From a virus, in the UHGV virus genome UHGV-0795596: a stretch of DNA of 10,345 nt, one strand, 5' to 3'. Every line of letters begins with the position of its first letter. Position 1 is the first letter of the stretch. The notes below the pieces were generated by a model, which was given only the letters and a program-made list of their open reading frames with translations, had not been told where the DNA came from and did no database searches. Made by a program: the position numbers and the translations under genes. Below, piece by piece: positions 9,120 through 9,772 of the stretch.

Positions 9120-9153
9120 TACCCTACTCCCGATAAGGAGTAGGGTAGTTTTT
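9120..9153. terminator. bidirectional rho-independent terminator (stem TACCCTACTCC / GGAGTAGGGTA, loop CGATAA, then GTTTTTA)
   Basis: Perfect 11-bp hairpin between convergent genes (plus-strand CDS ending 9036, minus-strand CDS ending 9155). T-run on the plus side; T-containing tract on the minus side. Confidence 0.75.
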
Positions 9154-9154
9154 A

Positions 9155-9634
9155 TTATTCCGCAGGATGGAGCATTGTTCCAGTGTCAGGAGCTACACCT
9201 TCCTTACAGTGGAAGAAAGTAATGCCTTTACCATCACCCGTTTTATATTCTAAAGTAGAATACGCAAATGTTGGTGTTTTTGAAAGTAACCCATTTACAC
9301 GGTAGTAACGTTGTCCCGTGATAGGATCGATATTCCCATTAACTTTACCTAATAGATCTTTATAAAGTTGGGGTGACTCAATCTTACCATTTGGCCAGGT
9401 GGCTACCCAGTTAGCACCAGTATCGATTACAGTTACTGAGCCTAACATTAGGTTAGTCGAATTGACGACAGGTTTATAATTTACAAAATCTTGCTCTACA
9501 CCCATACAGGTGTAAATAACCATGTCGTGTGGCTCTACGGGTACAGTCGAGAATTGACCGTTAGCGGTGGGTTGTAGGGCACAGCTTGCCAACGAAAGTG
9601 CTGCAGTTACAACAAGTAGAAAACGTTTTAGCAT
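9155..9634 (-). CDS. predicted lipoprotein (159 aa precursor; signal peptide MLKRFLLVVTAALSLA, lipobox L-A-S-C with Cys18, +2 residue Ala suggests outer-membrane sorting)
   Basis: The only convincing minus-strand gene. Minus-strand SD AAGGGTGA 5 nt before ATG. Classic n-region, h-region and lipobox. Two more Cys residues in the mature part. Bounded by its own terminator and a divergent promoter region. Confidence 0.8.
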   Translation of the reverse strand: MLKRFLLVVTAALSLASCALQPTANGQFSTVPVEPHDMVIYTCMGVEQDFVNYKPVVNSTNLMLGSVTVIDTGANWVATWPNGKIESPQLYKDLLGKVNGNIDPITGQRYYRVNGLLSKTPTFAYSTLEYKTGDGKGITFFHCKEGVAPDTGTMLHPAE

Positions 9635-9772
9635 GTTTTCACCCTTCTATAAAAAGTTAAAAATAATAATTTTACAGACAACCCTTACTGCTGTCTGTCA
9701 TAACTATTAACAACACTTCTATAATCCGAACAATACTATGCAAACCACCCATACTACTTACGAGGTAAAACA
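9635..9772. promoter_or_regulatory. divergent intergenic control region: plus-strand -10 TATAAT (9720-9725), repeated 'cttctataa' motif (9643-9651 and 9716-9724), and a 7-bp inverted repeat ACAGACA...TGTCTGT (9675-9699)
   Basis: All elements read directly from sequence. SD GAGGT is 6 nt before ATG 9773. No good -35 hexamer at 17-bp spacing, so promoter strength and type are uncertain. Confidence 0.35.

What the first reader, a model, noticed from the sequence alone, without database searches (positions are those of the whole stretch)
9120..9772. Stand-alone opposite-strand lipoprotein cassette (moron-like) with its own terminator and divergent control region
This is the only gene on the minus strand in a plus-strand array. 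It encodes a 159-aa precursor with a textbook lipoprotein signal peptide (lipobox LASC, Ala at +2, suggesting outer-membrane targeting) and is bracketed by a bidirectional terminator and a promoter-bearing intergenic region. Phage-encoded lipoproteins in this kind of context are often superinfection-exclusion or receptor-masking factors (T5 Llp and the Cor proteins are the established examples) or other host-surface modifiers. At 159 aa, and without proline richness or a partner inner-membrane spanin, it does not look like an o-spanin. Its specific function is unknown and possibly undescribed.
Basis: partly seen in the sequence, partly recalled or inferred. Interest (0 to 1): 0.65.

Follow-up and report, generated by a model that had tools for sequence, protein, structure and literature searches.

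The report
Jumbo-phage outer-membrane lipoprotein gene cassette
This is a real, self-contained gene for an exported lipoprotein that is conserved in giant nucleus-forming phages of enterobacteria and always sits beside host-recognition genes; it probably acts at the cell envelope to block further phage entry, but its function has not been tested.

Summary
ORF 9155-9634 (-) encodes a 159-aa lipoprotein precursor (lipobox LASC, Cys18, Ala +2). A hairpin at 9120-9147 scores as a terminator on both strands, and a 138-bp divergent control region lies upstream.

"Moron-like" is not supported. The gene belongs to PHROG 9559 (SPN3US gp159, Goslar gp088), found in about 55 enterobacterial jumbo phages. 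It evolves under purifying selection (dN/dS 0.06-0.15) and has ordinary GC content.

Its control signals look phage-late rather than sigma-70. All 15 aligned relatives keep TATGAC, which contains the phiKZ late-promoter consensus TATG. A lineage-variable hairpin follows that G, and every relative has a terminator hairpin after the stop codon.

The mature domain is predicted (pLDDT 83) as a small beta-barrel with two invariant cysteines. The best specific fold matches are MliC/PliC/PhiA lysozyme inhibitors, but profile comparison shows no sequence homology.

It is unlikely to be an o-spanin. SPN3US has a separate candidate pair, gp204 (type II membrane protein) and gp205 (lipoprotein).

The constant neighbours are DUF7941 baseplate-filament or tail-fibre genes, an arrangement like T5 oad/llp. 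Goslar gp088 is abundant in virion preparations that also carry host OmpA, OmpC and OmpF.

Best guess, about 0.3: a late, abundant envelope exclusion or progeny-protection factor.

The parts
9120..9147 (.). Bidirectional intrinsic-terminator hairpin shared by the convergent M15 peptidase gene (+) and the lipoprotein gene (-)
   Evidence: Scored on both strands. An equivalent hairpin follows the stop codon in all 18 homologous loci, with differing stem sequences.
9155..9634 (-). Lipoprotein precursor CDS, 159 aa. Signal peptide is encoded by nt 9634-9584, the lipid-attachment Cys18 codon is 9583-9581, and the mature protein is encoded by 9583-9158.
   Evidence: ORF. PHROG 9559 E=5e-65. Lipobox Cys, Cys43 and Cys143 are invariant in 17 family members. 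AF2 model pLDDT 82.9, beta-barrel. dN/dS 0.06-0.15.
9639..9647 (-). Shine-Dalgarno sequence (GAAGGGTG) 7 nt upstream of the ATG
   Evidence: Read directly from the sequence.
9674..9699 (-). Stem-loop GACAGACAGC...GTTGTCTGT beginning at the predicted +1 G. Likely a 5'-terminal mRNA hairpin or a promoter-proximal element.
   Evidence: -12.2 kcal/mol, z=-4.9. A hairpin starts within 4 nt of the TATG G in all 12 lineages tested, with different stem sequences. RNAalifold could not align the hairpins because of indels.
9697..9703 (-). TTATGAC late-promoter-like motif. The G at 9699 is the predicted transcription start, 65 nt before the ATG.
   Evidence: TATGAC is present at the aligned position in 15 of 15 relatives within a region of 41% mean identity. 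The phiKZ late-promoter consensus is TATG with G as +1 (PMC4666361). The same extended motif precedes SPN3US tail sheath gp256, gp171 and gp262. The motif is depleted in the window and in the SPN3US genome.
9737..9740 (+). TATG (within CTATGCAAACC) 33 nt upstream of the divergent DUF7941 gene. Candidate late promoter of the partner gene.
   Evidence: GCATA on the lipoprotein strand (TATGC on the + strand) is conserved in most relatives. SPN3US gp160 has AGTATGCACC at the same distance.
9773..10303 (+). Divergent partner gene: small DUF7941 virion protein, orthologue of SPN3US gp160 and paralogue of Goslar gp23
   Evidence: Pfam DUF7941 and PHROG 4862. It is divergent from the lipoprotein gene in all 14 IMG/VR loci and in STsAS. 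SPN3US gp160 is present at >300 copies per virion. DUF7941 proteins form baseplate-anchored filaments.
8521..9036 (+). Convergent neighbour: M15-type zinc peptidase (SQHKFGNAID...WLHID motifs), orthologue of SPN3US gp158
   Evidence: PHROG 894 endolysin E=6e-28. 78% identical to SPN3US gp158. gp158 is a trace, non-head virion protein. The equivalent gene in L025 carries a faint Peptidase_M15_3 hit.
7171..7761 (+). Nearby GH108 + PG_binding_3 muramidase of the TtsA/SagA family
   Evidence: Pfam. PDB TtsA 6v40 E=1e-43, SagA 7dnp E=3e-12.

Best explanation
[quoted passage not shown] The mature protein has a tether of about 20 residues, a disulfide-stapled small beta-barrel and a variable C-terminal tail.

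It is a dedicated transcription unit read by the phage's own late (non-virion) RNA polymerase from a TATG-type promoter. The mRNA begins with a hairpin and ends at a strong terminator, which would give a large amount of protein late in infection.

Most likely role (inferred, not shown): an envelope-level exclusion or progeny-protection factor analogous to T5 Llp and Cor. From the periplasmic side it would bind an outer-membrane component needed for adsorption or DNA entry. Infected cells and their debris would then stop capturing phages of this type.

Shown: the ORF, the signal and lipobox, family conservation, purifying selection, conserved promoter-like and terminator elements, the predicted fold, gene neighbourhood, and abundant protein expression of the Goslar homologue.

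Inferred: lipidation, outer-membrane location, late timing, and the exclusion function itself.
For: - Lipobox with an invariant Cys and a non-Asp +2 residue in all 17 aligned family members.
- Two further invariant cysteines, fitting a periplasmic disulfide.
- Confident beta-barrel model.
- TATGAC conserved in 15 of 15 relatives, matching the phiKZ late consensus.
- A hairpin follows that G in every lineage tested.
- Terminator conserved in every locus.
- The neighbour is always a host-recognition gene. It is a divergent DUF7941 gene in all SPN3US-like and Erwinia loci, even where the GH108-DUF1353 block lies on the other side or strand. In a 30%-identical homologue the lipoprotein is the last gene of a DUF7941 operon. 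In Goslar it follows the gpS-like tail fibre and Tfa.
- DUF7941 proteins are baseplate-anchored host-recognition filaments.
- T5 oad (receptor-binding protein) and llp show the same divergent arrangement.
- The Goslar homologue gp088 is detected at about 740 copy-equivalents per virion with 78% coverage. That sample also contains many OmpA, OmpC, OmpF and Lpp peptides.
- SPN3US gp159 is absent from the SPN3US virion lists in that paper's text and supplementary tables. Together with the Goslar data, this fits an abundant outer-membrane protein rather than a capsid or tail part.
Against: - No sequence or family relationship to Llp/Cor. PHROG 1119 is not hit and BLASTP gives E=1.2.
- The protein is twice the size of Llp.
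- T5 llp is an early gene, whereas this one looks late.
- DUF7941-linked domains suggest glycan receptors. A periplasm-facing lipoprotein could not mask these directly.
- The lipoprotein and its DUF7941 partner do not co-vary strictly. In L004 the lipoprotein is 92% identical to the window's and the partner 49%. In L005 the figures are 91% and 88%.
- No functional data exist for any family member.
Confidence: 0.3

Rival explanations
1. A membrane-anchored peptidoglycan-hydrolase inhibitor of the MliC/PliC/PhiA type. The barrel would bind and neutralise a phage muralytic enzyme in the periplasm. Candidate targets are the GH108 TtsA/SagA-type muramidase, the M15 peptidase, or the tail lysin of incoming virions. 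It would act as a Spackle-like block to superinfection or lysis from without, or as a safety catch on lysis.
For:
- Like MliC, it is a lipoprotein with one Cys in an N-terminal strand and one in the last strand. PhiA has the disulfide C76-C154.
- The loop motif D-x-G-[AS]-x-[WF] (IDTGANW) resembles the SGxxY motif (ASGANY in PliC-St).
- Three muralytic or associated genes lie within 2 kb. The GH108 protein is of the same family as SagA, the proposed PhiA target.
Against: - Profile-profile comparison of mature domains gives probability 0.2%. The 41% probability with full-length sequences came from the signal peptide only.
- No Pfam MliC hit in any of 11 members at E<=10.
- The critical Ser of SGxxY is not conserved.
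- PhiA itself failed to inhibit SagA in vitro.
- In Goslar the GH108 gene (gp24) lies about 80 kb from gp088.
- In three Erwinia-type loci the hydrolase block is on the other side.
Confidence: 0.2
2. It is the outer-membrane subunit of a spanin complex (o-spanin) that fuses the inner and outer membranes at lysis.
For: Lipoprotein signal. Location near muralytic genes. Late-type promoter.
Against: - No protein in the window has a transmembrane helix, so there is no i-spanin or holin partner.
- The mature domain is a 125-aa folded barrel with an internal disulfide and 6.3% proline, not a short proline-rich extended peptide.
- A genome-wide scan of SPN3US finds only one other annotated lipoprotein, gp205. 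It lies directly downstream of gp204, a type II membrane protein with a Pro-rich C-terminus, which is the canonical separated spanin layout.
Confidence: 0.04
3. It is a genuine virion-associated protein, for example attached to the DUF7941 filaments or tail fibres, that takes part in host recognition or membrane interaction at infection.
For: - Goslar gp088 is the fourth most abundant unmodelled protein in CsCl-banded virions, at 490-1160 copy-equivalents.
- That level exceeds the contaminating chimallin (about 126) and PhuZ (about 170).
- The gene sits among structural genes.
Against: - An invariant lipobox implies export and lipidation, whereas chimallivirus virions assemble in the cytoplasm.
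- gp088 was not seen in the cryo-EM model and was not among the proteins whose virion association was tested with GFP fusions.
- The same sample holds many OmpA, OmpC, OmpF and Lpp peptides, so outer membrane co-purified.
- SPN3US gp159 is absent from the SPN3US virion lists, although its neighbour gp160 is highly abundant there.
Confidence: 0.08
4. It is a ligand-binding periplasmic barrel (lipocalin, YceI or Cap15-like) that binds a small molecule or envelope lipid or glycan. It would remodel or stabilise the envelope late in infection, with no role in exclusion.
For: - Fold neighbours include nitrobindin, YceI-type polyisoprenoid binders, lipid-binding BT_2261 and the nucleotide-binding Cap15 barrel.
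- A cluster of invariant polar or aromatic residues (D71, S87, Q89, R109, Y111, R112, S126) could line a pocket.
Against: No ligand can be inferred. None of these hits exceeds 13% identity. The consistent linkage to host-recognition genes is not explained.
Confidence: 0.15

Closest known systems
SPN3US gp159 / Goslar gp088 / Erwinia phage 'Lipoprotein' (PHROG 9559)
   Same: Same family: 31-72% identity, lipobox, two conserved cysteines, same neighbourhood.
   Different: None of these has an assigned function. The window's copy is a new allele, 96% identical to the nearest database protein and 92% to the nearest viral contig.
T5 Llp and Cor superinfection-exclusion lipoproteins (PHROG 1119)
   Same: A phage-encoded outer-membrane lipoprotein encoded next to host-recognition genes. 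T5 oad and llp are divergently transcribed from a short spacer, as the DUF7941c and lipoprotein genes are here.
   Different: No sequence similarity and a different PHROG. Llp is 77 aa against 159 aa here. Llp is an early gene, and this one appears late. The target is unknown.
MliC / PliC / PhiA periplasmic lysozyme inhibitors (Pfam PF09864)
   Different: No HMM or profile-profile similarity. The SGxxY serine is not conserved. The protein carries about 40 extra residues and extra strands. It is encoded by a phage.
T4 Spackle (gp61.3)
   Same: A possible functional analogue (from established knowledge of T4, not tested here): a phage periplasmic protein that blocks the tail lysozyme of superinfecting phage.
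   Different: By established knowledge, Spackle is a small soluble helical protein, not a lipoprotein barrel. No relationship was tested or expected.
o-spanins (Rz1 type)
   Same: A phage lipoprotein targeted to the outer membrane.
   Different: It is folded, not proline-rich, and has no adjacent i-spanin. A separate candidate spanin pair exists in SPN3US.

Membership tests
Bacterial lipoprotein precursor (Lgt/Lsp substrate) | N-terminal signal peptide with positive n-region, hydrophobic core and lipobox [LVI][ASTVI][GAS]C | tested here: met
   MLKRFLLVVTAALSLASC, with Cys invariant in 17 of 17 family members. Highest 19-residue hydropathy is 1.74, at residues 2-20.
Bacterial lipoprotein precursor (Lgt/Lsp substrate) | Actual lipid modification and Lsp cleavage (globomycin sensitivity) | not testable with these tools
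   The only indirect hint is from the Goslar gp088 MS data. The N-terminal tryptic peptide following Cys was not found in the stored peptide list, while the neighbouring and C-terminal peptides were.
Outer-membrane sorting (Lol pathway) | No Asp at position +2 | tested here: met
   The +2 residue is A, T, V or S in all members. Localisation itself was not tested.
PHROG 9559 (SPN3US gp159 / Goslar gp088 family) | Significant full-length HMM match | tested here: met
   E=5.2e-65, residues 2-150 on profile positions 2-152 of 166. tblastn hits 55 phage records.
o-spanin | Partner i-spanin (type II inner-membrane protein) encoded adjacent to, overlapping or embedding the gene | tested here: not met
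   No window protein has a transmembrane segment. The flanking genes are an M15 peptidase and a DUF7941 protein.
o-spanin | Short, proline-rich, largely unstructured mature domain | tested here: not met
   6.3% proline. Beta-barrel with pLDDT >90 over most of residues 31-140.
Llp / Cor exclusion lipoproteins (PHROG 1119) | Sequence or profile similarity to Llp/Cor | tested here: not met
   T5 Llp falls in PHROG 1119. The window protein hits only PHROG 9559. BLASTP against T5 Llp gives E=1.2.
Llp / Cor exclusion lipoproteins (PHROG 1119) | Encoded beside the receptor-binding or tail-fibre genes | tested here: met
   Divergent from DUF7941c in every SPN3US-like and Erwinia locus. After the tail fibre and Tfa in Goslar. 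After a DUF7941 operon in L025. T5 oad/llp layout for comparison.
Llp / Cor exclusion lipoproteins (PHROG 1119) | Blocks the phage receptor or excludes superinfection | not testable with these tools
   Needs plating and adsorption assays.
MliC/PliC/PhiA lysozyme inhibitors (PF09864) | Pfam HMM or profile-profile match | tested here: not met
   No PF09864 hit at E<=10 in 11 members. hhalign of mature domains gives probability 0.2%.
MliC/PliC/PhiA lysozyme inhibitors (PF09864) | Eight-stranded antiparallel beta-barrel closed by a disulfide between the first and last strands | tested here: inconclusive
MliC/PliC/PhiA lysozyme inhibitors (PF09864) | SGxxY active-site-inserting loop | tested here: not met
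   The family motif is D-x-G-[AS]-x-[WF]. The position equivalent to Ser is variable (T/V/N/G/H/D/E). PhiA also lacks the motif.
Moron | Sporadic distribution among related phages and atypical composition | tested here: not met
   Present at the same position in all related loci fetched. GC is 0.41 against 0.40-0.46 for neighbours. dN/dS 0.06-0.15.

The most novel reading that the evidence does not exclude
Nucleus-forming jumbo phages of enterobacteria make, late and in bulk, an outer-membrane lipoprotein with a divergent MliC/PliC-like barrel. It would neutralise the virion-borne cell-wall hydrolases of incoming phages of the same kind. That would be a Spackle-type exclusion mechanism reached with a lysozyme-inhibitor fold. 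Alternatively, the protein physically decorates released virions through outer-membrane fragments and so tunes their adsorption.
Probability: 0.15. Interest if true: 0.75.

Novelty: new variant of a known kind. Interest (0 to 1): 0.5.

Why it matters
Envelope-level functions of chimalliviruses (lysis, exclusion, entry) are almost unknown. This family is one of only two annotated lipoproteins in SPN3US. Its Goslar homologue is among the most abundant phage proteins in virion preparations, yet the authors list it as having no predicted function and do not mention its lipoprotein signal.

If it excludes superinfection or protects progeny, it would matter for phage-cocktail design. It would also explain an abundant unmodelled 'virion' protein. 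The conserved TATG-plus-hairpin start offers a compact model late promoter for enterobacterial jumbo phages.

Tried and rejected
- Pfam, NCBIfam and PDB sequence searches of the protein and of its family profile gave nothing meaningful. The pyrroline-5-carboxylate reductase hits at E about 0.02 were treated as chance.
- The exhaustive HMM search found only 14 representative clusters. One, P0015 (5404 aa), is a repeat-protein false positive. Two, P0016 and P0021, are scrambled versions of SPN3US gp159.
- hhalign against an MliC/PliC alignment matched the signal peptide only and nothing in the mature domain.
- The AFDB Foldseek library was unavailable.
- BFVD Foldseek returned the family itself plus a few unnamed or uncharacterised proteins.
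- RNAalifold on the 5' hairpins failed because stems differ in length. Per-sequence shuffles were used instead.
- The sigma-70 promoter idea was dropped: the match is only 9/12, and phiKZ, the type chimallivirus, transcribes independently of host RNA polymerase.
- Positive selection was rejected. The lipoprotein's higher divergence among close relatives is due to saturated dS (mosaic exchange), not a raised dN/dS.
- The SPN3US infection proteomics paper (PMC6384053) could not be read.

Full report
**1. What is in the sequence**

- ORF 9155..9634 on the minus strand encodes 159 aa beginning MLKRFLLVVTAALSLASCALQP.
- The N-terminus has two basic residues, a 12-residue hydrophobic core and the lipobox L-A-S-C, with Cys18 and Ala at +2.
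- A GAAGGGTG ribosome-binding site lies 7 nt upstream of the ATG.
- The hairpin at 9120-9147 scores as an intrinsic terminator on both strands.
- The hairpin lies between this gene and the convergent plus-strand gene that ends at 9036.
- No other minus-strand ORF in the window has family support.

**2. The gene is real and conserved, not a moron**

- The protein matches PHROG 9559 (unknown function) at E=5e-65.
- It has tblastn homologues in 55 phage records, and every listed hit is a genome of about 200-250 kb. These include Salmonella SPN3US-like phages, Erwinia amylovora jumbo phages, Proteus phage 7 and E. coli phage Goslar.
- SPN3US gp159 and Goslar gp088 are the named homologues.
- An exhaustive profile search of 1.8 billion representative proteins found only 14 clusters, so the family is narrow.
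- All fourteen related viral contigs are 107-248 kb.
- In a 17-member alignment the lipobox Cys, Cys43, Cys143, G73, R109, Y111, S126, G133 and G135 are invariant.
- Against five close relatives dN/dS is 0.06-0.15, which indicates purifying selection.
- The gene is more diverged than its flanks: 90% nucleotide identity against 96-100% in L004, and 70% against 85-91% in L006-L008.
- That extra divergence comes with saturated dS, so it reflects mosaic exchange rather than positive selection.
- GC content (0.41) matches the neighbours.

**3. Control signals**

- The sigma-70-like match in the spacer is weak. It scores 9/12, and six such matches were found in the scanned stretch against 2.3 +/- 1.5 in shuffles.
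- phiKZ, the type chimallivirus, transcribes independently of host RNA polymerase.
- Alignment of the spacer from 15 relatives has 41% mean identity. Yet TATGAC is kept in all of them, at 9703..9697 on the minus strand of the window.
- TATG, with its G as +1, is the experimentally defined phiKZ late-promoter consensus (PMC4666361).
- In SPN3US the same extended motif precedes the tail sheath gene gp256, gp171 and gp262. A TATGCA variant precedes gp160.
- TATG is about two-fold depleted in the SPN3US genome (974 observed against 1986 expected). The extended motif is also depleted in the window (3 against 10 expected).
- A stem-loop follows the predicted +1 G in every lineage tested. Its sequence differs between lineages.
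- In the window the stem-loop spans 9699..9674, with -12.2 kcal/mol and z=-4.9.
- A 5'-terminal hairpin only makes sense if transcription starts there, so it indirectly supports the start site.
- All 18 homologous loci have a strong hairpin right after the stop codon, again with different stems.
- In a distant homologue (L025, 30% identity) the gene has no spacer. It is the last gene of an operon of long DUF7941 genes.
- In Goslar a CTATGG lies 37 nt upstream of the gene.
- My reading is a late transcription unit co-expressed with structural genes. No transcript data were available to confirm this.

**4. The protein**

- AlphaFold2 with the 17-sequence alignment gives mean pLDDT 82.9, above 90 across most of residues 31-140.
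- The model has a signal helix, a tether of about 20 residues, a barrel of 8-10 strands and a disordered tail.
- Cys43 sits in the first long strand and Cys143 in the last, consistent with a barrel-closing disulfide.
- PhiA and PliC are the only listed hits above 13% identity. Both belong to the MliC/PliC lysozyme-inhibitor family.
- E. coli MliC is also a lipoprotein with cysteines near both ends of the barrel.
- PhiA has the disulfide C76-C154.
- The family loop D-x-G-[AS]-x-[WF] (IDTGANW) resembles SGxxY (ASGANY in PliC-St).
- Against this, no Pfam MliC hit was found.
- hhalign of the mature domains gives probability 0.2%.
- The key Ser is not conserved.
- PhiA itself lacks the motif and did not inhibit SagA in vitro.
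- The fold relationship is therefore a lead, not a membership.

**5. Neighbourhood**

- Upstream on the plus strand lie three further genes.
- The first is a GH108 + PG_binding_3 muramidase of the TtsA/SagA family.
- The second is a DUF1353 protein.
- The third is an M15-type peptidase, assigned by its PHROG 894 match and its SxHxxGxAxD...H motifs.
- Across relatives, however, the constant partner is the divergent small DUF7941 gene at 9773-10303.
- It stays paired with the lipoprotein gene even in three Erwinia-type loci where GH108-DUF1353 lie on the other side and strand.
- In Goslar the GH108 gene (gp24) sits beside the DUF7941 pair gp22/gp23, about 80 kb from gp088.
- Goslar gp088 follows the gpS-like tail fibre and its assembly protein. 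It lies two genes from the DUF7941 carbohydrate-binding protein gp86.
- A 2026 Goslar preprint reports that DUF7941 proteins form long filaments. It proposes that they anchor at the peripheral baseplate and act in host recognition.
- SPN3US gp160, the orthologue of the partner gene, is present at more than 300 copies per virion.
- The partner gene is hypervariable among near-identical relatives: 49-88% amino-acid identity, dN/dS 0.24-0.43.
- T5 shows the same design. The receptor-binding gene oad and the lipoprotein gene llp diverge from an 80-bp promoter spacer.

**6. Protein-level evidence from the literature**

- In CsCl-banded Goslar virions gp088 was detected with 20 peptides and 78% coverage. 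The estimate is about 740 (490-1160) copies per virion.
- The authors list it among abundant proteins without a predicted function. They did not model it and do not mention its lipobox.
- The same sample contains PhuZ and chimallin, which are non-virion proteins.
- It also contains many peptides of host OmpA, OmpC, OmpF and Lpp.
- The tryptic peptide that would follow the lipidated Cys was not in the stored peptide list, while adjacent and C-terminal peptides were.
- SPN3US gp159 is absent from the SPN3US virion lists in that paper's text and supplementary tables.
- The simplest reading is an abundantly expressed outer-membrane protein that co-purifies with membrane fragments, not a structural component.

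**7. Spanin question**

- No window protein has a transmembrane helix.
- A lipobox scan of the whole SPN3US genome finds only gp159 and gp205 among annotated genes.
- gp205 lies 9 nt downstream of gp204, a type II membrane protein with a proline-rich C-terminus.
- That is the canonical separated spanin layout, although PHROGs gives neither protein a function.
- The gp159 family is therefore unlikely to be the o-spanin.

**8. Interpretation**

- The protein is most likely an outer-membrane-anchored periplasmic barrel made late and in quantity.
- Its persistent linkage to host-recognition genes and its T5-like architecture point to an Llp/Cor-like role. It would stop infected cells and debris from taking up phage.
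- I put this at about 0.3.
- The MliC/PliC-like fold, together with the nearby hydrolases, supports a rival at about 0.2. There the protein inhibits a muralytic enzyme, which could itself be an exclusion mechanism of the Spackle type.
- The remaining options carry the rest: a ligand-binding barrel (0.15), true virion association (0.08) and a spanin (0.04).
- None of the functions has been tested for any family member.

**9. Novelty and score**

- The family is already catalogued (PHROG 9559; UniProt 'Lipoprotein').
- The cassette itself is therefore not a discovery, and the 'moron' framing is wrong.
- Three things appear to be new. One is the recognition of a conserved late lipoprotein unit in enterobacterial chimalliviruses.
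- Another is its possible MliC/PliC-like fold.
- The third is its identity with an abundant unexplained 'virion' protein of Goslar.
- Interest is 0.5.

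Noticed in passing
window 9674-9703 (- strand): TATGAC is followed at once by a hairpin whose sequence differs in every lineage while its position is kept. This may be a 5'-terminal mRNA stabiliser or part of the late promoter. No such element is described for phiKZ late promoters in the papers read.
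   Followed up: partly
window 9773-10303: The small DUF7941 gene is hypervariable among otherwise 94-100% identical relatives (49-88% aa identity, dN/dS 0.24-0.43). This suggests allele swapping or diversifying pressure on a very abundant virion filament protein.
   Followed up: partly
window 3501-5580: Two paralogous 142/143-aa proteins (about 33% identical) flank a 373-aa protein with an internal duplication. That protein is also unusually variable among close relatives (64-78% aa identity).
   Followed up: no
window 2163-2708: The 181-aa ORF consists of two tandem repeats of about 85 aa (NFTRLDYTNELVDKEKYKFT... and RFNYSNELVSKEHYKFT...). No family was assigned.
   Followed up: no
window 8521-9036: The protein has clear M15 zinc-peptidase motifs (SQHKFGNAIDA, WLHID) and overlaps the DUF1353 gene by 23 nt, yet gets no Pfam hit at E<0.1. 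Its SPN3US orthologue gp158 is a trace, non-head virion protein, so it may be an entry-associated lysin rather than the endolysin.
   Followed up: partly
L022 33017-33976 (SPN3US gp204-gp205): A type II membrane protein followed 9 nt later by the only other annotated lipoprotein in the genome. This is a candidate, so far unannotated, spanin pair of SPN3US-like phages (PHROGs 8719 and 8165, both of unknown function).
   Followed up: partly
SPN3US genome (L019-L023): TATG is about two-fold under-represented (974 observed against 1986 expected from base composition), consistent with selection against spurious late promoters.
   Followed up: partly
Goslar virion MS, Table S4 of 10.64898/2026.04.21.720040: The CsCl-banded 'virion' sample contains many peptides of host OmpA, OmpC, OmpF and Lpp, as well as PhuZ and chimallin. 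Some of the 'abundant unmodelled virion proteins' may therefore be membrane or lysate carry-over.
   Followed up: partly
proteins P0016 and P0021 (public protein collection): Two database proteins consist of segments of SPN3US gp159, each about 20 aa long, in reversed order. They are probably assembly or gene-calling artefacts.
   Followed up: no
window 5588-5615 and 7111-7133: Further GC-rich hairpins followed by T runs lie after the 143-aa gene and after the second DUF7941 gene. A CTATGC motif lies about 60 nt before the first DUF7941 gene. The plus-strand array therefore seems to be split into several late units.
   Followed up: no
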